A stretch of 64,000 nucleotides of DNA, taken from positions 105,778 through 169,777 of IMG/VR virus record IMGVR_UViG_3300032249_000542; one strand, 5' to 3'. Positions 18,992-38,611 of this stretch are shown piece after piece (positions within the stretch are counted from its first letter, which is position 1; each line of letters opens with the position of its first letter). The notes beneath the pieces were generated by a model that was not told the DNA's origin, searched no databases, and saw only the letters and a list, made by a program, of their open reading frames with translations. The position numbers and the translations under genes were made by a program. The DNA is from a virus.

Positions 18992-20062
18992 ATGAAAATT
19001 GCGATTCTTGGTGACACGCATCACGGTATGCGTGGTGACTCTTTAGACTTTCATAGATACTATGAGAAGTTTTATTCTGAAATATTCTTTCCATACCTCA
19101 AAGAGAATGGAATTGATACTGTATTTCAATTAGGTGATTTATTTGACCGCAGGAAGTTTATTAACTTCAACTCTCTTTATTTGGTACGTAAGTATTTCTT
19201 TGAAGCACTTAGAGAACATAATATACAGTTTCATACGTTACTTGGTAATCATGATGTTGCATTTAAAAATACACTAGAGGTAAACTCCTCTCAACTACTA
19301 TTAAACGAATATGGTAACATTACTGTATACGATTCTTTTACTACACTTAACTTTGACGGCATTGATGTTGATGTGGTACCTTGGATATGTGATGATAACC
19401 AAGTTGAAATCTTTGATAAAGTAAAAGAATCAAAATCACAAATTTGTTTCGGTCATTTTGAAATCGCAGGATTCGAAATGGATCGTGGTAATGTTTGTCA
19501 TGAGGGTATTGACAAATCACAATTATCCAAGTATGATGTAGTATTATCTGGTCACTTTCATCACAAATCAGATGATGGACATATCTTTTATGTTGGTACA
19601 CCTGGAGAGATGACATGGTCCGATTATAATGATCCTCGTGGATTCCATATCTTTGATACCTCTACAAGAGAATCTACATTCATTCAAAATCCATACAGTA
19701 TGTTTTATAAAATAACATACGATGATACCAAACAAGATTTTGAATATTGGAAACAACACGACTACACACAATACAAAGAAACCTATATAAAAGTAGTAGT
19801 ATTAAACAAACAAAATCCATTTATGTTTGACACCGTTATTGATAACTTATATAAATGTGGAGTGTCAGACCTTTCAATCGTTGAAGATTTTTCTGAAATA
19901 ACTTTTGACCAAGATCAAGAAATTATAGATCAAGCAGAAGATACTATGACTATTCTTTCTAAGTATATTGATGGGTTAACATTAAATGTTGAATCAGAAA
20001 AACTTAAAACACTAATGCGTGAACTATATGTTGAAGCATTGAACTTGGAGAAAATAGAATGA
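18992..20062 (+). CDS. gp47: Recombination endonuclease gp47 (Mre11-like)
   Basis: GDTH, LGDLFD, GNHD, GHF, SGHFH metallophosphoesterase motifs. Confidence 0.95.
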   Translation: MKIAILGDTHHGMRGDSLDFHRYYEKFYSEIFFPYLKENGIDTVFQLGDLFDRRKFINFNSLYLVRKYFFEALREHNIQFHTLLGNHDVAFKNTLEVNSSQLLLNEYGNITVYDSFTTLNFDGIDVDVVPWICDDNQVEIFDKVKESKSQICFGHFEIAGFEMDRGNVCHEGIDKSQLSKYDVVLSGHFHHKSDDGHIFYVGTPGEMTWSDYNDPRGFHIFDTSTRESTFIQNPYSMFYKITYDDTKQDFEYWKQHDYTQYKETYIKVVVLNKQNPFMFDTVIDNLYKCGVSDLSIVEDFSEITFDQDQEIIDQAEDTMTILSKYIDGLTLNVESEKLKTLMRELYVEALNLEKIE

Positions 20063-20691
20063 GTAGATCGATTTATCTATTCCCTAAAGAAAGAATGGGA
20101 GTGACTTATCCTTATGTATTTTGGGATGGACTTTTTACTGATGAAGAACTTGATAGAGTAAAAGATTATTGTCGTGGTCTTGAATTGGCAACTGGAACTA
20201 CAGTTGGAAAAGATGGAGAACAGGATGATAAAAATGAAGCAAGAAAATCTGATATCGCATGGGCTAACCCAGGTGACGATAACATGTGGATATTTGACAG
20301 ACTTTCATGGGTAACTGAAAAAATCAATGATAGATTCTATGAATTTAATCTGAATGGATTTTCTGTTTTTCAATACACAGTTTATGACGGTAAGAAAAAA
20401 CAAAAGTATGATTATCACATGGATACAATCCTAGGTACAGATAAACCGGTTGACATGGCAGAAACAAGAAAGTTGTCTATGTCATTGATACTTTCCGACC
20501 CTAAAGATTATGAGGGTGGAGAGTTTTATATTCAAAGTGGATCACCTGAACAAGAAAAATTATTAAAGATGGAACAACTTAAAGGTCGTGTACTAGCCTT
20601 CCCATCATTTATGATTCATGGTGTTGCACCAGTAACTAAAGGTAAAAGAGAATCTATAGTCGTATGGGTTGAAGGACCTAAGTTTAAATAA
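20059..20691 (+). CDS. 2OG-Fe(II) oxygenase (PKHD/prolyl-hydroxylase-like)
   Basis: YDYHMD, RKLS, YEGGEF, FPSFMIHGVAPVTKGKRES. Confidence 0.9.
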   Translation: MSRSIYLFPKERMGVTYPYVFWDGLFTDEELDRVKDYCRGLELATGTTVGKDGEQDDKNEARKSDIAWANPGDDNMWIFDRLSWVTEKINDRFYEFNLNGFSVFQYTVYDGKKKQKYDYHMDTILGTDKPVDMAETRKLSMSLILSDPKDYEGGEFYIQSGSPEQEKLLKMEQLKGRVLAFPSFMIHGVAPVTKGKRESIVVWVEGPKFK

Positions 20692-22397
20692 TGATATTTT
20701 TCCGTAATGTACGTTGGAAGAATCTTCTTTCAACGGGAAACTATTTCACAGAAATAAAGTTAGATAGTACATCCAATACTTTGATAGTTGGCAATAACGG
20801 ATCAGGCAAATCAACAATGCTTGATGCGTTATGCTTTGCATTGTTTGGTAAAGCATTTCGTAGTATCAATAAACCAAACCTTGTCAATTCTATCAACGGA
20901 AAAGATTGTGTGGTTGAAGTTGAGTTTGATGCTGCAAATAAATCATACAAAGTTGTTCGTGGTATTAAACCCAACGTATTCGAAATCTATCAAGATGGAA
21001 TACTACTCAATCAAGATTCTGCCGCAAGAGACTATCAAGAATTTCTAGAGAAGTTCATTCTCAAACTAAACTATAAATCGTTTACACAAATTGTTATTCT
21101 TGGTTCTGCATCATTCACACCGTTCATGCAGTTGTCTGCATCTGACCGTCGTGCAATCATTGAGGATTTGTTAGATATTCAAATATTTTCTTCAATGAAT
21201 GGTGTTGTTAAAGAAAGAATGTCTGGTAACAAAGATTTTATTCAATCAACAAAGAATGATCTTGAAGTTACAAAGAAAATCTACGATGTCAAGAAGAAAC
21301 ATCACGATGAACTTCAACAAGATAAACAAGCAAAGGTAAACGAATATGAGAGTGAGATACAAAGTTGCAGAGAAACCATTGGCACCCTTTGTGGAGAAAT
21401 TGACGACTTGGGGAGAACGCAAAGCACACTTGCCGAAGTCTGCTCGCAAATTCCTGAAAATGAAAAGAAGATTGCTTCGCTTAAAAAAATTGAATCCAAA
21501 ATTGAAAGCAAGATATCCCAAGTGGGAACAGATAGAGAATTCTATGAACACAATGCTGATTGCCCAACGTGTAGGCAGGCCATTACCTTGGAGTCTAAGG
21601 AACGGCACATGGGCGATCTACTATCAAAACAACAGGAACTTGATAGTGGTCTAACAGAACTTCAAGGAAAAATAACAGAGCATGAAACTCTGTTGGCATC
21701 TCTGCGTTCCGATGAACAGAAGCTTCATACTGTACGAATAGAACTTGCTACCAAACAAACTGGCAAAGCCGGACTAGAAGCATCAATTGTAAAATTAGAA
21801 AAGAAGATTACAGATTTACAAAACACACAACACACACAAGACGGAAGCGAATTAAAAGAACTACAGGACACCTATGAATCTTTACAAGGTCAATTAAAAG
21901 AGTTGTTGGATGAGAAGTCTTATTATGAAGCTGCCGCAATACTATTAAAAGATTCTGGTATTAAAACCAAAATCATCAAACAATATTTACCAATTATAAA
22001 CAAGTTGGTAAACAAATACTTGGCATCATTGGATTTCTTTGTTAATTTTACGCTTGACGAATCGTTCAAGGAAGTGATAAAATCTAGACATAGAGATGAT
22101 TTTAGTTACCACAATTTCTCGGAAGGTGAAAAACAACGTATCGATATGGCATTGATGTTGACATGGAGAGCGGTTGCTAAACTAAAGAACTCTGCAAATA
22201 CTAACCTATTATTATTAGATGAAGTGTTTGATTCGAGTTTAGATACTGGTGGTACAGAAGAATTGATGAAAATTTTACACATGTTGGATGATGTTAATCT
22301 ATATGTCATTAGTCATAAAGGTGATATTCTACATGATAAGTTTGCCAATGTTATTAAATTTGATAAAGTAAAAAACTTCTCAAGGATGGTGAAATGA
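20691..22397 (+). CDS. gp46: Recombination ATPase gp46 (Rad50-like)
   Basis: GNNGSGKST, CPTC zinc hook, FSEGEK signature, LLLLDE, VISH. Confidence 0.96.
   Translation: MIFFRNVRWKNLLSTGNYFTEIKLDSTSNTLIVGNNGSGKSTMLDALCFALFGKAFRSINKPNLVNSINGKDCVVEVEFDAANKSYKVVRGIKPNVFEIYQDGILLNQDSAARDYQEFLEKFILKLNYKSFTQIVILGSASFTPFMQLSASDRRAIIEDLLDIQIFSSMNGVVKERMSGNKDFIQSTKNDLEVTKKIYDVKKKHHDELQQDKQAKVNEYESEIQSCRETIGTLCGEIDDLGRTQSTLAEVCSQIPENEKKIASLKKIESKIESKISQVGTDREFYEHNADCPTCRQAITLESKERHMGDLLSKQQELDSGLTELQGKITEHETLLASLRSDEQKLHTVRIELATKQTGKAGLEASIVKLEKKITDLQNTQHTQDGSELKELQDTYESLQGQLKELLDEKSYYEAAAILLKDSGIKTKIIKQYLPIINKLVNKYLASLDFFVNFTLDESFKEVIKSRHRDDFSYHNFSEGEKQRIDMALMLTWRAVAKLKNSANTNLLLLDEVFDSSLDTGGTEELMKILHMLDDVNLYVISHKGDILHDKFANVIKFDKVKNFSRMVK
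21346..21654 (+). CDS. Candidate overprinted basic protein inside gp46
   Basis: AAGGT RBS 8 nt before ATG; local shift to rare codons in the gp46 frame. Confidence 0.35.
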   Translation: MRVRYKVAEKPLAPFVEKLTTWGERKAHLPKSARKFLKMKRRLLRLKKLNPKLKARYPKWEQIENSMNTMLIAQRVGRPLPWSLRNGTWAIYYQNNRNLIVV

Positions 22398-22570
22398 TAG
22401 AAATAAGTGGACACATGGATAAAGATCGCAAAGCGATTGTATCTTTGGACGAAGAAACAAGAAAATATATTGTGACATGTACAGATGGTTTTGGTGCAAG
22501 ATATACCTCAGACTTTTTAACTTTACATGCAGCAGAGAACTTTGCTGAAGATTGGGTGCTACAGAAATGA
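22394..22570 (+). CDS. Small hypothetical protein (58 aa, ends AENFAEDWVLQK)
   Basis: ATGA overlaps with both the gp46 stop and the def start; below the ORF-track cutoff. Confidence 0.7.
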   Translation: MIEISGHMDKDRKAIVSLDEETRKYIVTCTDGFGARYTSDFLTLHAAENFAEDWVLQK

Positions 22571-23181
22571 GTGAAATGATTAGTATTAATACCGAAGAAG
22601 GTATTACGTCATCTGTCAAAGATACAGAATTAGATGTACTTCCAGTTTATCCAGATGCATTCCCAATGCTTCAAGAAAAGGTTCCTGAGTATAAAGATGC
22701 ATTACCTAGTGGAACTATGACTGTTCTAGTCAAACGATTGAAGATGACAATGAAAGCATACAACGGTTTAGGATTGTCTGCAAATCAATGTGGAGTCTTT
22801 GAACGAGTTTTTGTAATGCGTATGCAAGATAGAAATGAAATAAAAAATGTTGCATGTATCAATCCAAAAATTATTGATGAATCTGATGAAATCATAAGAG
22901 ATAAAGAAGGTTGTCTTTCATACCCAGGAATGTTTCTTACAGTACCTAGATCACAATGGATTACTGCTTCATGGTATGATGAGAACGGTGAAGGTTATGA
23001 AGCAAGACTTGATGGCATACAAGCAAGAGTATTTGCACATGAACTAGATCATCTAAACGGTGTTAAGATGACTGACTATGTTGGTCCTGTTGCAGTTAAG
23101 ATGGCAAGAGATAAACAAGCAAAGTTGATGAAAAAAATTAAGCGACAAATGAAAAACGGAAAACTCCAAAACCCTATATAA
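22567..23181 (+). CDS. def: Peptide deformylase
   Basis: GLGLSANQCG, EGCLS, HELDHLNG. Confidence 0.95.
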   Translation: MSEMISINTEEGITSSVKDTELDVLPVYPDAFPMLQEKVPEYKDALPSGTMTVLVKRLKMTMKAYNGLGLSANQCGVFERVFVMRMQDRNEIKNVACINPKIIDESDEIIRDKEGCLSYPGMFLTVPRSQWITASWYDENGEGYEARLDGIQARVFAHELDHLNGVKMTDYVGPVAVKMARDKQAKLMKKIKRQMKNGKLQNPI

Positions 23182-23185
23182 TATT

Positions 23186-24367
23186 ATGAAATACAAACCA
23201 TACACACTTGCAGATATGAATGCTGCATCTGAACAAAATCTATTTACTGTCATCAGTACCTTTGCAGGTGCAGGTGGATCATCTACTGGATATAAACTTG
23301 CCGGTGGTAAAGTGCTTGTGTCTAACGAATTCGTTGACCATGCATATGAATCATACAAGTTAAATCATCCCGGGACAGTTGTATTGACTGGTGACATTAA
23401 AGAGATTGAAGGTTCTCGGTTTTTAGATGCTGCGAATCTATCTCCAGGTGAATTGGATATCTTTGATGGTTCTCCACCATGTACTCACTTTTCTATGTCA
23501 GGCAAACGTGAGAAGTCATGGGATAAAGAAAAGAACTATCATGGACATAAACAGTTTCAGATTGAGAAACTAACTTTGGAAATGATTCGTATTGCAAAAG
23601 ATTTACGACCAAAGACTATTGTTATTGAAAATGTGAAAGCATTATCATCAGGTAAGGCAATCAATTATTTAAATTCATTCAAATACGAGTTAGAAAAAAT
23701 TGGTTATAAGTGTATATCACATATTCTAAATGCATCACACTTTGGTGTACCTCAAGGACGTGAAAGAACATTTATCATCGGTGTTCGTAATGATGTTGCA
23801 GAGAAACTTGGTATTGAAGATTATAATTTATTTCAAACATTGTATCCTGAACCATCAGGAAAGAAGTTGTCACTACTAGGTGCGTTTGATGGATTAGATG
23901 ATGATCCTAACTATGCAATCGAATGTCAGAATGAAAGAGATAAACTTGCAAAAGGAAACATTGTTGTACGTGAAGTATTAAAGAAGATACCACACAATCC
24001 ACATAGACAAATGCAGTTCTGTAACTTTTTAAAAGATGTTGCAAAAGAAAACTCAGACATACCTAAACTTGCAAAGTTTAAAGATAAAGAATCGTACTTC
24101 AACTATTTCAGGTGTTCATGGGATGTACCATCTCCGACAATTACAGGAAGATGTCACTCTTACTTTCATCCATCTGAGGACAGATGTTTCACTTTGAAAG
24201 AATTGATGCGTATCATGAGTTTGCCTGATGACTTCAAGTTTGCTCCAGGTAGTGAAGAAGCAATGGAAGAACGTATTGGATTAATGGTTGCACCTAAAGT
24301 CATGCAAGCTATATCATCTAATCTTTACAACAAAATACTTAAACCTTATAAAGAGATGCAGCAATGA
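23186..24367 (+). CDS. C5-cytosine DNA methyltransferase
   Basis: Motif I FAGAGG, IV GSPPC, VI ENV, VIII QGRER, IX ELMRIMSLPDDF. Confidence 0.95.
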   Translation: MKYKPYTLADMNAASEQNLFTVISTFAGAGGSSTGYKLAGGKVLVSNEFVDHAYESYKLNHPGTVVLTGDIKEIEGSRFLDAANLSPGELDIFDGSPPCTHFSMSGKREKSWDKEKNYHGHKQFQIEKLTLEMIRIAKDLRPKTIVIENVKALSSGKAINYLNSFKYELEKIGYKCISHILNASHFGVPQGRERTFIIGVRNDVAEKLGIEDYNLFQTLYPEPSGKKLSLLGAFDGLDDDPNYAIECQNERDKLAKGNIVVREVLKKIPHNPHRQMQFCNFLKDVAKENSDIPKLAKFKDKESYFNYFRCSWDVPSPTITGRCHSYFHPSEDRCFTLKELMRIMSLPDDFKFAPGSEEAMEERIGLMVAPKVMQAISSNLYNKILKPYKEMQQ

Positions 24368-25287
24368 AAGAGTTTTTTATAGACACCGACCTTGGCTTCG
24401 ATGAAGCGCAAAAGTTTCATGGTCGTGTTCCTACAGAAGATGATTATGATTTAGTTGTTGATGCCGATGAAGTTGATGATGACTTTCGTGTATGGGGTCC
24501 TGCAAATATGTTCGGCGAAAGAGAACTACTTGCAGGTGTAGCACGTAAAGTATTTCCAAAAGATGTTTACGATGATTGTGTAAAGACAATGATGGAAATA
24601 AATCACACTTCCGATCTACGTACTGCACAAGCAGGACCATGGGATCCTGACGAACTACTTAAAAAGTTTGGATGGGTAGAAGGTGAACACTATAAGTTCA
24701 AAGGTAAGACAAGAAACGCATTGATACGTAAAAAGAAAGATGGTACATGGGATACTGTCGCAAGAGGTAAAGCAATTCATAGTGTTCTACTTGGATACAA
24801 GAAGGGTAGATTTACTGGAGAAGTAGAATTAGATGCATGGTCAAAGAAGAATCCAGAAAAACAAAAAGTATTCTTTGACATGAACTTCTATGCTGCAAAA
24901 TCATACAACTTCATTGCACCAAAAGAATATACTAATCAAGTAATGTTTGCAGACAAGTATATTAAAAAAGAAAATAGATTGAATGATACAATCTTTACTA
25001 CAATGTCAGCAAATAAATATACTGAGAACGATACATCCATGATGGGTTATCATATCGATGCAGGTGATTTGAACTCAAGTCTAACATGCATATCTGTATT
25101 TAAAGTTGGTGATTTCAAAGGTGCATACTTTATTCTACCACAACATCGTGTAGCAATATCAGTTGGTGATGGTGATGTATTTGTTGGTGACAGTCGTAAA
25201 CAACATGGTGTAAGCGAACTTGAAGGACCAGGGACTAGATTATCTTGTGTCTCTTATTGTGATACTAGGATGGCGAATGTTAAATAA
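24364..25287 (+). CDS. TET/JBP-family 5-methylpyrimidine dioxygenase
   Basis: HxD (YHIDAGD), distal H (QHG), R (TRLSCVSY); lies between a C5-MTase and a GT. Confidence 0.82.
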   Translation: MKEFFIDTDLGFDEAQKFHGRVPTEDDYDLVVDADEVDDDFRVWGPANMFGERELLAGVARKVFPKDVYDDCVKTMMEINHTSDLRTAQAGPWDPDELLKKFGWVEGEHYKFKGKTRNALIRKKKDGTWDTVARGKAIHSVLLGYKKGRFTGEVELDAWSKKNPEKQKVFFDMNFYAAKSYNFIAPKEYTNQVMFADKYIKKENRLNDTIFTTMSANKYTENDTSMMGYHIDAGDLNSSLTCISVFKVGDFKGAYFILPQHRVAISVGDGDVFVGDSRKQHGVSELEGPGTRLSCVSYCDTRMANVK

Positions 25288-26077
25288 TTTCTTTATACCA
25301 ACATATAAAAGACATGATGCACAAATAACTTTTAGTAATCTACCAAAGTCTTGGCAAGATAGAACATTCTTAGTTGTACAACGTGACGAACGACATTTAT
25401 ATAATGACTATCCGCACATTGTGTTACCTGATGATATAACTAAGGTGCCAGAGAAACGTGAGTGGATTGCAAAACAAAATCTTGACAAACGATTTGGTGT
25501 CTTTGATGATGACTTGAAGTTCTTTAAAACCAAAATGATTAATGATGATTATGAAAAGTCAAAAATCAAAATGGAAGATAAAGATTTTGATGACCTAGAA
25601 GAATTATTGTGTGGTTGGATGGATGAAGGTATTGTGTTTTGTGGTATGGATGTAACATCTAACATACCTGATCGTGAAAAAGAATACAAAGAGATTACTA
25701 GACAATGGTCTAACTTTTTCTTTGATGGTCCGAACTTTCCTGCGAATGAATTGGATTGGACTAGTATACGATATGCAGAAGATTTTCATGTTACCCTACA
25801 GTTATTTAAGATGGGGTATAAGAATCGTCTAAGTAATAGGTATAGAGTTGACCCAGGACCTGTTCAATCAGGCGGTGGATTAACTGATGAAAGAACTATA
25901 CAAGCACATAATGAATCTATGCAAAAACTTGCTTTAGCACACCCAGGACTAGTTGCGTTATATGAAAAAGAAACTACCGCTGGTGAGTGGAAAAATACTG
26001 CAAAAGTAGCAGCAAATATCTCATGGAAGAAAGCATTTAAAGATGCCAATTCGACAACACTAGAAAGTTTCTTTTAA
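25277..26077 (+). CDS. TET-associated DNA glycosyltransferase (GT-A, TAGT/GREB1-like)
   Basis: FIPTYKR, VFDDDLKF (DxD), AEDFHVTLQLFKMGYKN, SGGG; ATG 25277 overlaps the TET stop. Confidence 0.8.
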   Translation: MLNNFFIPTYKRHDAQITFSNLPKSWQDRTFLVVQRDERHLYNDYPHIVLPDDITKVPEKREWIAKQNLDKRFGVFDDDLKFFKTKMINDDYEKSKIKMEDKDFDDLEELLCGWMDEGIVFCGMDVTSNIPDREKEYKEITRQWSNFFFDGPNFPANELDWTSIRYAEDFHVTLQLFKMGYKNRLSNRYRVDPGPVQSGGGLTDERTIQAHNESMQKLALAHPGLVALYEKETTAGEWKNTAKVAANISWKKAFKDANSTTLESFF

Positions 26078-26086
26078 GACAACTGC

Positions 26087-26115
26087 TTGACATAAAGCGG
26101 GTTACCATGTATAAT
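26087..26115 (+). promoter_or_regulatory. Early sigma70 promoter (perfect consensus)
   Basis: TTGACA-N17-TATAAT. Confidence 0.9.
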
Positions 26116-26150: not shown

Positions 26151-26342
26151 ATGTCAATTTGGCAACAAATGTCTAAAGAGGAAGAAATGCATTTTCACAC
26201 CTCGGTAAATGATGTTATTTCTGCATTTAAATACCACGGTATGCCAGCCGTACTAGATGAAGTATTCAAGGATGCGGCAATTCGGCAACAATTCTATACA
26301 TACTTGACAAATACAGCAAAATCTGTTAATATATCAGTCTAA
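26151..26342 (+). CDS. Small early hypothetical protein
   Basis: RBS AAGGA, downstream of a consensus promoter. Confidence 0.65.
   Translation: MSIWQQMSKEEEMHFHTSVNDVISAFKYHGMPAVLDEVFKDAAIRQQFYTYLTNTAKSVNISV
26304..26332 (+). promoter_or_regulatory. Early sigma70 promoter
   Basis: TTGACA-N17-TAATAT with extended TGn. Confidence 0.7.
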
Positions 26343-31117: not shown

Positions 31118-31461
31118 TGGAACAGATTGGCCGTAAGTTTGATGGTGAGAAACTAGAGTATGGTTTATTGCCACCGCTTGCATTAAAGGCCACGGTTGAC
31201 GTATTGACGTTTGGTGCTCAGAAGTATGAACGAGGTAATTGGAAGTACGTTTCTGAATCCAAACGAAGATATTTTGATGCATTGCATCGGCACATATGGG
31301 AATGGAAAGAAGGTGAACAACTAGATCCTGAATCTGGTAAACATCATCTAGCTCATGCCATATGTTGCTTGATGTTTTTGTATGAACATGATATACTCTA
31401 TTCTATTGATGACAATTTTAATAATGAGGCAAAAAATGAAGCTATCCAAAGAAACAGTTGA
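31117..31461 (+). CDS. DUF5664-like dATP/dGTP diphosphohydrolase-family protein
   Basis: GRKFDGEK, VLTFGAQKYERGNW, ALHRH, DPESGKHHLAHA. Confidence 0.8.
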   Translation: MEQIGRKFDGEKLEYGLLPPLALKATVDVLTFGAQKYERGNWKYVSESKRRYFDALHRHIWEWKEGEQLDPESGKHHLAHAICCLMFLYEHDILYSIDDNFNNEAKNEAIQRNS

Positions 31462-32116
31462 GATTCTTAAAAACTACGGTGCTATCAATCAAGGTATGTA
31501 CTTCCGTCAAGGTAAGTTTTTAAAGACTGTCAACTCCCACAAAAACATTCTAACAAGCGCACAGATTGACGAGGATATTCCAGTTAATTTTGGTGTGTAT
31601 GATATCAACAACTTCCTAAGTGTTATATCACTTGACGAATCACCAGAGTTTGAATTCAGTTCAAATGATGTTAAGATTAAGTGTAAAGGTGGTCGTAGCA
31701 TCATCAAGTATGGATTCTGCCAACCAGACTTAATTGTTTGTGCTCCAGAAAAAGACTTGGTAATGCCAGATCCAGAAATTCAATTCAATCTTTCACAAGA
31801 TGACTTGAAGTGGATTCTACGTAGTGCAAGTGTATTATCTACACCGCAAGTTGTTGTTGAATCTGATGGTGCAGATATAAATGTTACTGCAACCGATCTT
31901 TCTAATGACGCTACTAATGTCAACACACTAAGAGTTGGTGACGGTAACGGTAGTGCATACAAAATGATTTTCAAGGCTGAGTTCCTTGAGAAACTTATGT
32001 CTGGTAATTACGAAGTGAAGATTTCTTCTAAAGGTATCTCACATTTCAAAAACACTGGCCGTAAGATTGAATACTGGATTACTACTGAAACTGGTAGTAA
32101 ATTTTCTGCATCCTAA
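31436..32116 (+). CDS. gp45: Sliding clamp gp45
   Basis: MKLSKETVEILKNY...INQ, FGVYDINNFL, ISSKGISHF, IEYWI; RBS GAGG before ATG 31436. Confidence 0.93.
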   Translation: MKLSKETVEILKNYGAINQGMYFRQGKFLKTVNSHKNILTSAQIDEDIPVNFGVYDINNFLSVISLDESPEFEFSSNDVKIKCKGGRSIIKYGFCQPDLIVCAPEKDLVMPDPEIQFNLSQDDLKWILRSASVLSTPQVVVESDGADINVTATDLSNDATNVNTLRVGDGNGSAYKMIFKAEFLEKLMSGNYEVKISSKGISHFKNTGRKIEYWITTETGSKFSAS

Positions 32117-32131
32117 TAGGACATTTATATT

Positions 32132-32299
32132 ATGAAACAATTCTTTACTCCTAAAGAAGAATACATTGCTGTTCTCCAAACAGAAATGGAAACATTGTTG
32201 CGTTATTACTTTAATCCAAATAAAGAAGGTACAGGACACTACAACACAGCAGCAAGTGTCCTGTCCGAAAGAATTAAAGAATTACAAGCGCAAGTTTAA
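32132..32299 (+). CDS. Small hypothetical protein (55 aa, EGTGHYNTAASVL)
   Basis: RBS AGGA; fills the gp45-gp44 gap; below the ORF-track cutoff. Confidence 0.7.
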   Translation: MKQFFTPKEEYIAVLQTEMETLLRYYFNPNKEGTGHYNTAASVLSERIKELQAQV

Positions 32300-32324
32300 A
32301 TTATGATTTTTGTGAAAGGTTCTA

Positions 32325-33257
32325 ATGGAACATATATTATGGACAGAGAAGTATCGTCCTCAAACGATAGAAAACTGTATCCTACCAGAACGATTGAAAA
32401 AACCATTTCAGGAATACGTCAATCAAAAGACTATTCCGAATCTTCTATTGAGTGGTGGCCCAGGAGTCGGAAAGACAACTGTAGCCAAAGCAATGTGCAA
32501 CGAGATAGGATGCGATTATCTAGTAATCAATGGTTCTGACGAATCTGGTATTGATACATTCCGCACTAAAATAAAGCACTACGCTTCTTCTATGTCATTT
32601 GATGGTAATCGTAAGGTTATCATCATTGACGAAGCGGATTATCTAAATCCTAATTCTACACAACCTGCTCTGCGTAATGCGATTGAAGAATTCGCAGGAA
32701 ACTGCTCATTCATCTTTACTTGTAATTTCAAGAATCGTATTATTGATCCACTTCATTCACGGTGTGCTGTGATTGAGTTTGGTATGAAGAACGGTGAGAA
32801 AGAAAAGATGGCTTCGCAGTTTTTCAAGCGAATTCAGGAGATTTTGCAAAGTGAAAAAATCGAGTTTGATAAGGCAGTTGTTGCCGAGTTAGTCAAGAAA
32901 CACTTTCCAGACTTCCGTCGTGTCGTTAATGAACTGCAAAGGTATTCAAAGTTTGGTGAGATCAATCAAGGTATCCTTGCACAGATATCATCAACAAAAA
33001 TTTCTGACATTGTAAAACACATTTCTGCAAAAGACTTTGGTTCCATTCGTAAATGGGCAGCGACAGAAGATATCGATCCTACTACAGTTTTCAGAATGAT
33101 TTACGATAACATGTATGATATATTGAAACCAAATTCAATTCCAAAAGCAGTTTGTATTCTTGCTGACTATCAGTACAAGAATGCTTTTGTTGCTGATCCT
33201 GAAATCAATATGGTTGCATGTTTGACTGAACTGATGGTTGAATGTGAATTTCAATAA
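32325..33257 (+). CDS. gp44: Clamp loader large subunit gp44
   Basis: WTEKYRP, GPGVGKTT, IIIDEAD, LHSRC. Confidence 0.96.
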   Translation: MEHILWTEKYRPQTIENCILPERLKKPFQEYVNQKTIPNLLLSGGPGVGKTTVAKAMCNEIGCDYLVINGSDESGIDTFRTKIKHYASSMSFDGNRKVIIIDEADYLNPNSTQPALRNAIEEFAGNCSFIFTCNFKNRIIDPLHSRCAVIEFGMKNGEKEKMASQFFKRIQEILQSEKIEFDKAVVAELVKKHFPDFRRVVNELQRYSKFGEINQGILAQISSTKISDIVKHISAKDFGSIRKWAATEDIDPTTVFRMIYDNMYDILKPNSIPKAVCILADYQYKNAFVADPEINMVACLTELMVECEFQ

Positions 33258-33643
33258 TGAGTAACCCTTTTGATTATGTTAAAGAAATTCTTCAAGGCAA
33301 GAAGAATATCATAAAAGATGCAGAGTCAGAAAAAGACTATGTTCCATATCTGGTCAACCGTAGTATTTCGTATCATTATGATTGTGTCATGTGGGCAAAT
33401 GAGATGAATATTCGTTCATCTGCTGACAAAAAGATGCAATTTGACTTTTTACTAAATACTGTACGGTCAACGAAAAGACCATTTGCTAAGTGGATTAAGC
33501 GTGAATCAAGTGACGATATAGAATGTTTGAAGTTACTTTATGGATATTCCAATCAAAAAGCCCTTGAAGCTCTACGCCTACTTAGTGATGAACAAATCCA
33601 AGAACTAAAAGAAAAAACTCGAAAGGGTGGATTAAGGAAATGA
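33257..33643 (+). CDS. gp62: Clamp loader small subunit gp62
   Basis: YVPYLVNR, ANEMN, QFDFLLN, YGYSNQKA. Confidence 0.93.
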   Translation: MSNPFDYVKEILQGKKNIIKDAESEKDYVPYLVNRSISYHYDCVMWANEMNIRSSADKKMQFDFLLNTVRSTKRPFAKWIKRESSDDIECLKLLYGYSNQKALEALRLLSDEQIQELKEKTRKGGLRK

Positions 33644-35781: not shown

Positions 35782-36080
35782 TGATAAAACTACTCACACT
35801 AAAAACAAATCATACCCTAATGGGGAATGTTGAAGATTTACCAGAATTTAATTATGTGACTATTAAAGAACCTGTACAGGTGGTACAGATTCCACCACGT
35901 GCGGCAAACGATACTGGAAGTATTGCTTTTTCTCCATTTTTAGATTATACTAATGAATTCAGAAGTGGAATACAGATTATAAAAAATGATATTCTAACCA
36001 CTACTACGCCTATACTTGAATTAGAAAATCAGTATAACTCTATCTTCGGATCCGGAATACAAATTGCAAAAACACTTTAA
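35781..36080 (+). CDS. Conserved hypothetical protein (Sm-like) upstream of gp43
   Basis: IKLLTLKTNHTLMG...YNSIFGSGIQ; translationally coupled. Confidence 0.65.
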   Translation: MIKLLTLKTNHTLMGNVEDLPEFNYVTIKEPVQVVQIPPRAANDTGSIAFSPFLDYTNEFRSGIQIIKNDILTTTTPILELENQYNSIFGSGIQIAKTL

Positions 36081-38611
36081 TGAGTAAATACTACACAAAC
36101 ATAACGGTATATGGTCCTCATATACTTTATCGAGGTGTAAAGAATGGTAGGCGCATAAAAGAGAAAATCAACTATGCGCCTACTCTCTTTTTACCTGCCA
36201 AGAAAAAGACCGACTACAAAACTCTGTTCGGTGAATATCTAGAACCCATGCAGTTTTCCAATATTAGAGAGGCAAGGGACTTTGTTAAACGATATGAATC
36301 CGTAGAGAATTTTAAAGTCTATGGTAATGATCGTTACGCATATGCATTTATCGCAGACAACCACAAAGGTTTGATTGATTGGAATATGGATGAACTATCA
36401 ATTGTAATCATCGATATTGAGGTTGGTTCTGAGAATGGTTTCCCTGATCCTTACAAAGCATCCGAACCAATTACTGCAATTGCTGTTCGTCAATTGAACG
36501 GTGGCACTACTGTTTATGGTTGTGGTCACTATGATAATAACGATGAAACTGTTAGTTATGTTCGATGCCAAGATGAAATTGATCTATGTAAGAAATTTCT
36601 AAATGATTGGCAACACAACTATCCTGATGTGATAACTGGTTGGAATACTGAAGGATTTGATATTCCTTATCTGATTAATCGTTTCACTAAACTATTTGGT
36701 GAGAAGGAAGCACGTAAGTTATCTCCATGGGAAGTAATCAATGAGAGGGTTTACAATTTCAAAGGTTCAGAGAAGAAGTCTTATGATATCTTTGGTATTG
36801 GTCAACTAGATTATATTGAACTATACAAATGGTATGCGCCTAATGGTAAGTCACAAGATTCATACAAGTTGGACAACATCGCAAGTGTAGAACTTGGTGA
36901 GAACAAACTATCCTATGATGAATATGATACCCTTCATCAATTGTACAGATTAAACTATCAGAAGTTTATTGAGTATAACATCAAAGACGTTGAACTGATT
37001 CTGAAACTAGAAGAAAAGTTAAAGTTGATTCAGTTGGCATTGACTATGGCATATGATACCAAGTGTAACTATGCTGATGTCTTTGCACAAACTCGCATGT
37101 GGGATGCATTGATTTACAATCATCTACTAGAACAAAAGATCATCGTACCACCAAAAGAAGTTTCACATAAAGGTGAAGCATTTGAAGGTGCGTATGTTAA
37201 AGAACCACAAGTTGGTAATCACGATTGGGTTGCATCGTTTGACTTGAATTCTCTGTATCCACACTTGATTCAAATGTACAACATATCTCCTGAGACGTTG
37301 ATTCCTGTATCAGAACATACAGAAGAAATGCGTAAGGTAATACATGATGGTGTAACCGTAGATAAACTGTTAGAAATGAAAGTTGACACTTCAAAGATAT
37401 CGAATGTCATCCTAACACCTAATGCTCAATACTTCCGTAAAGGTGTACAAGGATTCTTGCCAAAGATGATGGAAGAAATGTATGAGGATCGTAAGAAGTT
37501 TAAGAAGTTAATGCTCAAGGCTGAACAAGAGTATGAAAATGAAACTGATGTAACTAAGAAAAAAGAACTAGAGAATTTAATCTCAAGATATAACAATCTA
37601 CAACTTGCAAAGAAATTATCTTTGAACTCTGCTTATGGTGCATTGGGTTCACAGTATTTTCGATTCTTTGATTTGCGAATGGCACTAGCAGTAACCATGT
37701 CGGGTCAACTAGCAATCCAGTGGATTGAAAGTAAACTTAATACCTACATGAATGATATTTTAAAAACGAAAAAAGATTATGTTATTGCTTCAGATACGGA
37801 TTCGATATATCTCAACCTTGGCCCACTTGTACGCAAAGTCTATAAAGAAGAAACGGATCCTAACAAAATTATCACCTTCATGGATCGTGTCTGTGAAGAT
37901 AAGATACAACCGTACATTAATAAGAGTTATCAAGAACTTGCTGATTACATCCACGCCTACGCACAAAAAATGCAAATGAAACGTGAAGCACTTGCAAGTA
38001 AAGGTATATGGACTGCAAAGAAACGATACATCCTCAATGTGTATAACAATGAAGGTGTACAGTATGCAGAACCGCAGATGAAGGTTAAAGGTCTAGAGAT
38101 GATTAAATCTTCTACACCTTATGCTATTCGTGAAAAGATGAAGGAGATGGTTAAACTTGTAATGAATGGTACAGAGAGTGACGTACAAGACTTTATTGCG
38201 AAATTCCGAGAAGAATTTAAATCCTTACCAGTCGAAGATATATCGTTCCCACGTGGAGTGAATAATCTTGCTGAGTATCGTGATTCTGTTGGTATATACA
38301 AGAAAGGTACACCTATTCATGTAAAGGGTGCGTTACTATATAATCATTTCTTAAAACAAAAGAATCTAACAAACAGTTACCCATTGATACAAGAAGGTGA
38401 GAAATTAAAGTTCACCTATCTAAAATCACCGAATCCAATAAAGGATACAGTCATATCTTTTCCGACAAGACTCCCGAAAGAGTTTGACTTGCAGAAGTAT
38501 ATCGACTATAATATTCAATTCGAGAAGGCTTTTATTGAACCAGTTTCGGTTATTCTAACCTGTATGGGATGGGAGTCTGAAAAATCTAATTCGTTGGAGA
38601 GTTTCTTCTAA
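36080..38611 (+). CDS. gp43: Family B DNA polymerase gp43
   Basis: Exo DIE, SFDLNSLYPH, KLSLNSAYG, SDTDS, KKRY; C-terminal clamp motif SLESFF. Confidence 0.98.
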   Translation: MSKYYTNITVYGPHILYRGVKNGRRIKEKINYAPTLFLPAKKKTDYKTLFGEYLEPMQFSNIREARDFVKRYESVENFKVYGNDRYAYAFIADNHKGLIDWNMDELSIVIIDIEVGSENGFPDPYKASEPITAIAVRQLNGGTTVYGCGHYDNNDETVSYVRCQDEIDLCKKFLNDWQHNYPDVITGWNTEGFDIPYLINRFTKLFGEKEARKLSPWEVINERVYNFKGSEKKSYDIFGIGQLDYIELYKWYAPNGKSQDSYKLDNIASVELGENKLSYDEYDTLHQLYRLNYQKFIEYNIKDVELILKLEEKLKLIQLALTMAYDTKCNYADVFAQTRMWDALIYNHLLEQKIIVPPKEVSHKGEAFEGAYVKEPQVGNHDWVASFDLNSLYPHLIQMYNISPETLIPVSEHTEEMRKVIHDGVTVDKLLEMKVDTSKISNVILTPNAQYFRKGVQGFLPKMMEEMYEDRKKFKKLMLKAEQEYENETDVTKKKELENLISRYNNLQLAKKLSLNSAYGALGSQYFRFFDLRMALAVTMSGQLAIQWIESKLNTYMNDILKTKKDYVIASDTDSIYLNLGPLVRKVYKEETDPNKIITFMDRVCEDKIQPYINKSYQELADYIHAYAQKMQMKREALASKGIWTAKKRYILNVYNNEGVQYAEPQMKVKGLEMIKSSTPYAIREKMKEMVKLVMNGTESDVQDFIAKFREEFKSLPVEDISFPRGVNNLAEYRDSVGIYKKGTPIHVKGALLYNHFLKQKNLTNSYPLIQEGEKLKFTYLKSPNPIKDTVISFPTRLPKEFDLQKYIDYNIQFEKAFIEPVSVILTCMGWESEKSNSLESFF

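What the first reader, a model, noticed from the sequence alone, without database searches (positions are those of the whole stretch)
23186..26077. Complete post-replicative cytosine hypermodification operon: C5-MTase -> TET/JBP -> glycosyltransferase
Seen: three overlapping genes with intact catalytic motifs (PPC/ENV; HxD..H..R; DDD/ED) in the gp46-gp45 interval. Known: phage C5-MT/TET/GT clusters make 5mC, then 5hmC, then glycosyl-5hmC on DNA, in GpC-centred contexts in characterised cases, unlike T4's pre-replicative dCMP hydroxymethylase route. The sugar and sequence context here are unknown and could be new.
Basis: partly seen in the sequence, partly recalled or inferred. Interest (0 to 1): 0.75.

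Follow-up and report, generated by a model that had tools for sequence, protein, structure and literature searches.

The report
Phage cytosine methylate-oxidise-glycosylate operon
A complete 170-kb T4-like phage from an environmental virome carries three coupled genes that should methylate cytosines in its DNA, oxidise the methyl group and attach a sugar; this pathway is already known from phage metagenomes, but here the sugar-adding enzyme ends in the same short tail as the phage DNA polymerase, which suggests it rides on the replication clamp.

Summary
Window 23186-26077 holds three same-strand, overlapping genes:
- a C5 cytosine methyltransferase (PF00145, 194 bits)
- a TET/JBP dioxygenase (PF12851, 44.5 bits, above the cut-off; the AF2 model's best PDB matches are human TET2, CMD1 and NgTET1, well ahead of FTO/AlkB)
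- a GT-A TET-associated glycosyltransferase (PF20691; best PDB match TarP)

The closest TET relatives include single-ORF MT-TET-GT fusions. The complete genome has no ThyA-type hydroxymethylase, CmoA or CmoY.

One rival was tested. The nearest solved relative of the methyltransferase is the carboxymethyltransferase CmoX. Its cofactor-selecting Arg350 is Leu here and in every TET-linked methyltransferase examined.

This is a new member of a kind described by Burke 2021 and Pyle 2023/24. The sugar stays unknown. A GpC context is inferred only.

The added value is the tail. The glycosyltransferase ends in TLESFF and the polymerase in SLESFF. Across 83 related loci this tail occurs in 52/60 glycosyltransferases, 22/23 polymerases, 7/21 TETs, 3 methyltransferase-like proteins and 0/708 other proteins. 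This argues for tethering to the gp45 clamp, which is not proven. RGCY depletion does not reveal the methylation target.

The parts
23186..24367 (+). C5 cytosine DNA methyltransferase (393 aa), step 1: C to 5mC, probably at GpC
   Evidence: PF00145 at 4.9e-57 and TIGR00675 dcm at 153 bits. Full-length match to PDB 8YF3 SpCmoX at E 2.6e-79, but Leu (IGLMVAP) sits where CmoX has Arg350 (VGRMVPP).
24364..25287 (+). TET/JBP-family Fe(II)/2OG 5-methylpyrimidine dioxygenase (307 aa), step 2: 5mC to 5hmC
   Evidence: PF12851 at 44.5 bits against a cut-off of 34.9. AF2 pLDDT 94.9. Foldseek top hits are TET2, CMD1 and NgTET1. Invariant R86, H230, D232, H281 and Y298.
25277..26077 (+). TET-associated GT-A glycosyltransferase (266 aa), step 3: sugar onto 5hmC
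   Evidence: PF20691 at 37.1 bits against a cut-off of 27.5, and phrog_842 at 4.7e-34. AF2 pLDDT 92. Foldseek top hit is TarP. Invariant R12 and D77-D79; nearly invariant E168, D169 and F170.
26057..26074 (+). C-terminal acidic-hydrophobic tail TLESFF of the GT, a candidate gp45 clamp-binding epitope
   Evidence: Near-identical to the polymerase tail SLESFF. The last 6 residues have pLDDT 54. The motif is found in 52/60 GTs and 0/708 unrelated proteins of 83 loci.
36080..38611 (+). gp43 family-B DNA polymerase ending in SLESFF (reference clamp ligand)
   Evidence: PF00136 and PF03104; tail. The role of the C-terminal tail in T4 comes from PMC2988020.
31382..32116 (+). gp45 sliding clamp, the inferred docking partner
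   Evidence: PF09116 gp45-slide_C at 9.4e-10. The clamp-loader genes follow at 32325-33643.
26087..26115 (+). Perfect sigma-70 consensus promoter (TTGACA-17-TATAAT) 10 nt after the GT stop; marks the 3' boundary of the unit
   Evidence: No comparable promoter or terminator lies inside 23186-26077.

Best explanation
This is a translationally coupled three-enzyme cassette that modifies the phage's own DNA after replication. (1) The C5-MTase uses SAM to methylate cytosine, most likely in GpC. (2) The TET-like Fe(II)/2-oxoglutarate dioxygenase hydroxylates the new methyl group to give 5hmC. (3) The GT-A glycosyltransferase transfers a sugar from a nucleotide-sugar onto the hydroxymethyl group. The expected product is glycosyl-5hmC at a subset of cytosines: at most 17.7% if all GpC sites are targets, about 6.7% if only GpC[C/T]. 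Its presumed role is to blunt host restriction. The GT, and in sister lineages also the TET or a methyltransferase-like enzyme, carries the polymerase's C-terminal clamp epitope. I therefore infer that it is recruited by gp45 clamps on replicating phage DNA. What is shown: gene content, motifs, folds, synteny, fusions and the tail distribution. What is inferred: the chemistry, the sequence context, the sugar and the clamp binding.
For: Family matches are all above the curated cut-offs. The TET fold is closest to TET2, CMD1 and NgTET1 and the GT fold is closest to TarP, the same top PDB hit that Pyle et al. report for their active GT-A DNA glycosyltransferases. Synteny holds in 14 contigs. The closest TET relatives include single ORFs MT-TET-TAGT, TET-TAGT and MT-TET-kinase. 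No ThyA-type hydroxymethylase, CmoA or CmoY is found by tblastn of the whole genome. The MT shares 40-43% identity over its full length with GC-specific SpCmoX. TET-linked MTs were shown to make 5mC at GpC[C/T]. Tail: strict motif in 52/60 GTs, 22/23 polymerases, 7/21 TETs and 3 PF00145 proteins, and in 0/708 others. The tail is kept in GTs down to 33% identity behind a variable linker. The acidic-hydrophobic C-termini of T4 gp43, gp55 and gp33 are clamp ligands. T4 alpha-GT binds gp45.
Against: There are no biochemical data for these proteins. Several metavirome MT/TET pairs were inactive in E. coli. The sugar donor is unknown. MT specificity is inferred from relatives at about 40% identity. 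Tail covariation between GT and polymerase within loci is weak (4.1 against 3.8 identical positions of 6, p = 0.04). The gp33-like protein here lacks the motif and gp55 has only a related internal VDNFI. T2's TAGT has no such tail. In T4 the alpha-GT-gp45 contact was reported not to be the main determinant of the glucosylation pattern.
Confidence: 0.78

Rival explanations
1. The 'methyltransferase' is a CmoX-type C5-carboxymethyltransferase that uses carboxy-SAM, so the first product is 5-carboxymethylcytosine rather than 5mC.
For: The closest solved structure by far is SpCmoX 8YF3 (E 2.6e-79, against about 1e-17 for M.HhaI and M.HaeIII). The SPPC motif is present.
Against: The carboxylate-binding Arg350, which the authors use to define CmoX, is Leu here and in all 25 TET-linked MTs aligned. 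The complete genome has no CmoA or CmoY homologue. The gene overlaps a TET, whose substrate is a methyl group.
Confidence: 0.04
2. The dioxygenase acts on thymine (5hmU, base-J-like glycosylation) and the methyltransferase serves a separate protective role.
For: Most phage 5mYOX are now thought to be T-dioxygenases, and some pair with GTs. TET89 oxidises T.
Against: T-dioxygenase clades lack an immediately adjacent C5-MT. Here MT and TET overlap by ATGA, co-migrate as one recombination unit and are fused in relatives.
Confidence: 0.06
3. The pathway is real, but the GT is not the first-sugar enzyme. It would extend a sugar added by another enzyme (as T2/T6 TAGT does), or glycosylate a non-DNA acceptor, or the cassette would stop at 5hmC.
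For: T2/T6 TAGT adds a second glucose. The genome has another GT2 next to a GalE equivalog, and an Anp1-like protein.
Against: No alpha-GT or beta-GT homologue was detected (weak negatives). Pyle's GT-A enzymes glycosylate 5hmC directly. TET-TAGT fusions exist. The polymerase-like tail argues for a DNA-bound enzyme.
Confidence: 0.08
4. The C-terminal tail is not a clamp ligand. It would be a shared signal for something else, such as degradation, localisation or another replisome partner.
For: No binding data exist. The gp33-like protein lacks the tail. Covariation is weak.
Against: The tail is restricted to the polymerase and DNA-modifying enzymes. The polymerase C-terminus is the established clamp epitope in T4 and RB69.
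Confidence: 0.3

Closest known systems
Phage C5-MT / 5mYOX(TET) / GT biosynthetic gene clusters (Burke et al. 2021, PMC8256090; Pyle et al. 2023, bioRxiv 10.1101/2023.12.21.572611)
   Same: Parallel adjacent MT and TET followed by a GT-A glycosyltransferase with R...DDD...EDF motifs. TarP is the top PDB fold match. The contigs are T4-like. Family members are GpC-directed and TET43 stalls at 5hmC.
   Different: The position in the genome differs: the cassette lies between gp46 and gp45, after a peptide deformylase, rather than directly after the polymerase. The single GT has no adjacent epimerase. The GT carries a polymerase-like C-terminal tail, which the papers read here do not mention.
Methylophilales phage Melnitz (MZ577097), a cultured relative
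   Same: Kyanoviridae T4-like phage with overlapping MT (39% identity) and TET (36-38% identity). IGLMVAP is kept in the MT.
   Different: Its cassette follows the DNA polymerase. It has no TAGT; the next gene is a 427-aa protein with no Pfam or PHROG match. Its TET, not a GT, ends in a tail-like NLNDFLGE.
SpCmoX/CmoA/CmoY of Synechococcus phage S-B43 (PMC12783734)
   Same: The MT is its closest solved homologue. Both are from T4-like Kyanoviridae. SpCmoX is GC-specific.
   Different: Arg350 is replaced by Leu. There is no CmoA or CmoY. The partners are a TET and a GT rather than an amide ligase.
T-even hmC glucosylation (dCMP hydroxymethylase + alpha/beta-GT + TAGT)
   Same: The end product class is glycosyl-hmC. 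The TAGT family is shared at about 21% identity. T4 alpha-GT binds gp45.
   Different: The T-even route is pre-replicative and replaces every cytosine. Here the route is post-replicative and site-limited. T2's TAGT lacks the tail.

Membership tests
C5 cytosine DNA methyltransferase (PF00145 / Dcm) | Profile match above the cut-off with motifs I (FxGxG), IV (PC, catalytic Cys), VI (ENV) and VIII (QxRxR) | tested here: met
   194 bits against a cut-off of 22. FAGAGG, SPPC, ENV and QGRER are visible in the translation and the alignment.
CmoX C5-carboxymethyltransferase | SPPC motif plus Arg350 contacting the Cx-SAM carboxylate, with phage CmoA as donor synthase | tested here: not met
   SPPC is present, but position 350 is Leu. 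No CmoA by TIGR00740 or tblastn.
TET/JBP 5-methylpyrimidine dioxygenase | Tet_JBP profile above the gathering score; HxD...H iron triad and 2OG-binding Arg; jelly-roll fold closest to the TETs | tested here: met
   44.5 bits against 34.9. H230, D232, H281 and R292, plus R86, V296 and Y298, are conserved. TET2 at E 2e-12 against FTO at about 3e-7.
Phage 5mC-dioxygenase subclass (Burke clades A/B), as opposed to T-dioxygenases | Immediately neighbouring, co-oriented C5-MT | tested here: met
   4-nt overlap with the MT. MT-TET fusions occur in relatives.
Phage 5mC-dioxygenase subclass | Oxidises 5mC to 5hmC on DNA | not testable with these tools
   Needs LC-MS or EM-seq.
TAGT / GT-A DNA glycosyltransferase (PF20691) | Profile above the cut-off; GT-A fold; R...DDD...ED[YF] active-site motifs | tested here: met
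   37.1 bits against 27.5. TarP is the top fold hit. R12, D77-79 and E168-D169-F170 are conserved.
TAGT / GT-A DNA glycosyltransferase | Transfers a defined sugar to 5hmC in DNA | not testable with these tools
   The sugar identity cannot be read from the sequence.
T4-type gp45 clamp ligands | Short acidic-hydrophobic extreme C-terminus like that of gp43, behind a variable linker | tested here: met
   TLESFF against SLESFF. Low pLDDT in the tail. Variable linker. Enrichment.
T4-type gp45 clamp ligands | Physical binding to the clamp | not testable with these tools
   No multimer modelling or binding assay is available here.

The most novel reading that the evidence does not exclude
In a broad clade of aquatic T4-like phages the DNA-hypermodifying 'writer' enzymes carry the DNA polymerase's gp45-binding tail: the TAGT glycosyltransferase almost always, and the TET or a divergent C5-MT-like enzyme in some lineages. 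Base modification would then be physically coupled to loaded sliding clamps. That would give speed and also self/non-self selectivity, because only clamp-bearing phage DNA would be modified. It would be a viral counterpart of DNMT1-PCNA coupling and a parallel to the ParB-dependent phage T-dioxygenases.
Probability: 0.5. Interest if true: 0.7.

Novelty: new variant of a known kind. Interest (0 to 1): 0.5.

Why it matters
The cassette places a TET-based, post-replicative cytosine glycosylation pathway in a complete T4-like genome that has no ThyA-type hydroxymethylase. This shows that T4-like phages reach glycosyl-hmC by two unrelated routes. The Leu/Arg switch at the CmoX Arg350 position separated every TET-linked methyltransferase examined here from the one carboxymethyltransferase compared (SpCmoX). 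That makes it a candidate annotation rule. The polymerase-like tail on the modification enzymes gives a testable model for how such enzymes find freshly replicated phage DNA. It also names a cultured system (Melnitz) and simple peptide-clamp assays with which to test the model.

Tried and rejected
1. Genome k-mer evidence for the methylation target. RGCY is depleted (0.58 of the synonymous-shuffle expectation, z = -20) and CGCG is almost absent (4 sites against about 95 expected). The same depletion is as strong or stronger in Pelagibacter phage HTVC008M, which gave no TET hit. It therefore cannot be read as a footprint of this MT.

2. Covariation of GT and polymerase tails within loci is only marginal (p = 0.04).

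3. A looser tail pattern also picked up a baseplate hub protein (VQSFFG). I used the strict motif instead.

4. The genome search 'own' missed the TET that hmmscan finds. Its negatives are therefore weak. I backed up the ThyA, CmoA and CmoY negatives with tblastn. Alpha-GT and beta-GT were not re-tested.

I used the search for related loci instead.

6. The PDB sequence search gave nothing for TET or GT, so folds were needed.

The analysis was redone from files.

Full report
**What is there**

The window is the last 64 kb of a 169,777-bp IMG/VR virus record with direct terminal repeats, rated 100% complete. It is a T4-like myophage.
- gp47 and gp46 lie at 18992-22397.
- gp45, gp44 and gp62 lie at 31382-33643.
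- gp43 lies at 36080-38611.
- There is no psbA.

Between gp46 and gp45, on the + strand, lie a peptide deformylase (22552-23181) and then three genes:
- MT, 23186-24367
- TET, 24364-25287
- GT, 25277-26077

MT and TET share caATGAaag. TET and GT overlap by 11 nt, with AGGA 6 nt upstream of the GT start codon. MT starts 4 nt after the deformylase stop. A perfect TTGACA-17-TATAAT promoter lies 10 nt after the GT stop. Nothing comparable lies inside the triad. The three genes therefore close a transcription unit.

**Family assignments**

- MT: PF00145 at 4.9e-57 and TIGR00675 at 153 bits.
- TET: PF12851 at 44.5 bits, above the 34.9 gathering score.
- GT: PF20691 (TET-associated glycosyltransferase) at 37.1 bits against a cut-off of 27.5, and phrog_842 at 4.7e-34.

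An AF2 model of the TET, built on 40 homologues, has pLDDT 94.9. Its best PDB matches are human TET2 (E 2e-12), CMD1, NgTET1 and CcTet. FTO and ALKBH appear only at about 3e-7 or weaker.

Invariant or nearly invariant TET residues are R86, T213, H230, D232, H281, R292, V296 and Y298. These correspond to the HxD...H triad, the 2OG arginines and the Thr/Val/Tyr pocket that Burke et al. list for phage TETs.

The GT model has pLDDT 92. It is a GT-A fold with TarP as the best PDB match. Pyle et al. report the same top hit for their active GT-A DNA glycosyltransferases. The GT keeps their R...DDD...ED[F/Y] motifs as R12, D77-79 and E168-D169-F170.

**Evidence that the three act together on DNA**

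- The order gp46-PDF-MT-TET-GT-orf63-peptidase is kept in 14 IMG/VR contigs.
- An exhaustive HMMER search found 495 TET relatives.
- The closest relatives include single ORFs with the architectures MT-TET-TAGT (973 aa), TET-TAGT, MT-TET-P-loop kinase and MT-TET-kinase-ADDT. These fusions link the three activities.
- T-dioxygenases characteristically lack an adjacent C5-MT.
- The genome has one C5-MT and one TAGT.
- It has ThyX but no ThyA-type hydroxymethylase, CmoA or CmoY. tblastn with ten reference proteins over the whole genome gave only noise, apart from ThyX, the MT itself and one short MT-region match (1e-4) to the divergent MT-like query.
- hmC must therefore arise on the DNA polymer.

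**The carboxymethyl rival**

The nearest solved relative of the MT is SpCmoX from Synechococcus phage S-B43. The match is full-length: PDB 8YF3 at E 2.6e-79, against about 1e-17 for M.HhaI. SpCmoX is a GC-specific C5-carboxymethyltransferase whose Arg350 binds the carboxylate of Cx-SAM. The authors define CmoX by SPPC plus Arg350.

In an alignment with the S-B43 gene (L086), the window MT and all 25 TET-linked MTs (36-100% identity, including Melnitz) read IGLMVAP (VGLMVAP in two). SpCmoX reads VGRMVPP. With no CmoA in the genome, the enzyme fails the CmoX test. It is best read as the SAM-using sister group. Full-length similarity to a GC-specific enzyme, together with the GpC[C/T] specificity measured for TET-linked MTs, makes GpC the likely context. 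This is inferred, not shown.

The genome has 5,521 GpC sites. That gives 11,042 target cytosines, or 17.7% of all C. GCC plus GCT account for 4,165, or 6.7%.

**The tail**

I tested this.

- In this genome only these two of 431 ORFs end this way. A looser pattern also hits a baseplate hub protein.
- In the AF2 model the last six GT residues have pLDDT 54.
- The tail persists in GT homologues down to 33% identity, behind a linker of variable length and sequence.
- I applied the strict motif [STNGDE][LIM][DE]x[FILM][FLM] with at most two trailing residues to 881 distinct proteins from 83 related loci.
- It is present in 52/60 GTs, 22/23 polymerases and 7/21 TETs.
- It is also present in three other proteins, all divergent PF00145 methyltransferase-like enzymes, and in none of the remaining 708.

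In T4 the acidic-hydrophobic C-termini of gp43, gp55 and gp33 are interchangeable gp45 ligands behind flexible linkers. T4 alpha-GT co-purifies with gp45. I therefore infer that this GT docks on gp45, at about 0.5-0.6 probability.

Caveats:
- Within-locus covariation is weak (p = 0.04).
- The gp33-like protein lacks the motif.
- T2's TAGT has no tail.
- In T4 the clamp contact was reported not to be the main determinant of the glucosylation pattern.
- None of the papers I read mentions such a tail.

**Comparison and novelty**

The cassette is a member of the MT/5mYOX/GT clusters of Burke 2021 and Pyle 2023/24, who mined IMG/VR and report thousands of such clusters. Among 50,697 phage records, the closest with both MT and TET is Methylophilales phage Melnitz, at 36-39% identity with no TAGT. 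No cultured phage has a GT closer than 28%.

The operon itself is therefore a new member of a known kind. The clamp-type tail on the writers is the variant feature. The sugar cannot be predicted. The genome also encodes a GalE equivalog next to a GT2, 97 kb away, which could supply or use UDP-galactose.

**What did not hold**

The depletion of RGCY and near-absence of CGCG are real against a synonymous-codon shuffle. They are equal or stronger in HTVC008M, which gave no TET hit, and they are also present in Melnitz. They say nothing specific about this MT's target.

Noticed in passing
whole genome (G000); window included: CGCG is almost absent: 4 sites against about 95 expected from synonymous-codon shuffles (ratio 0.04). 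The ratio is 0.08 in HTVC008M, and there are 0 sites in 50 kb of Melnitz. GATC, CATG, TCGA and all four RGCY tetramers are also depleted. This looks like clade-wide restriction-site avoidance and is unrelated to the MT.
   Followed up: partly
window 23100-25250 compared with L005, L019 and L011: The nucleotide identity is mosaic. In L019, identity drops from 92-97% to 59-72% exactly at the TET/GT overlap (about 25200). In L005, MT-TET is 78-95% identical inside flanks of 51-70%. MT-TET seems to move between lineages as a unit. The GT exists as two alleles (about 96% and 56% amino-acid identity), and both keep the tail.
   Followed up: partly
L034, L041, L053, L056, L058, L084 (IMG/VR T4-like contigs): There is a second architecture in which the tailed TAGT homologue is followed by a divergent PF00145 MT-like gene (motifs CPC / QNV), sometimes itself tailed. 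In L056 a ThyA-like (PF00303) gene lies upstream. No TET was detected by tblastn in these loci. This is possibly a pre-replicative route that uses the same GT clade.
   Followed up: partly
genome 32432-34116 (outside the window; L087 752-2436): A GT2-family glycosyltransferase lies next to a GalE equivalog (TIGR01179, 293 bits against a cut-off of 262), followed by ClpP. This is a possible nucleotide-sugar supply for DNA or surface glycosylation.
   Followed up: partly
L001 4836-5822 (Melnitz): The TET of the cultured phage Melnitz ends in NLNDFLGE, which resembles its polymerase tail TLEDFFG. The next gene (427 aa) has no Pfam or PHROG match.
   Followed up: no
window 20059-20691: A separate P4H-type 2OG-Fe(II) oxygenase (PF13640) sits between gp47 and gp46. 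It is not part of the cassette and should not be confused with the TET.
   Followed up: no
window 26151-26342: A 63-aa ORF directly downstream of the perfect promoter is conserved in all syntenic loci (59-100% identity). It has no family match.
   Followed up: no
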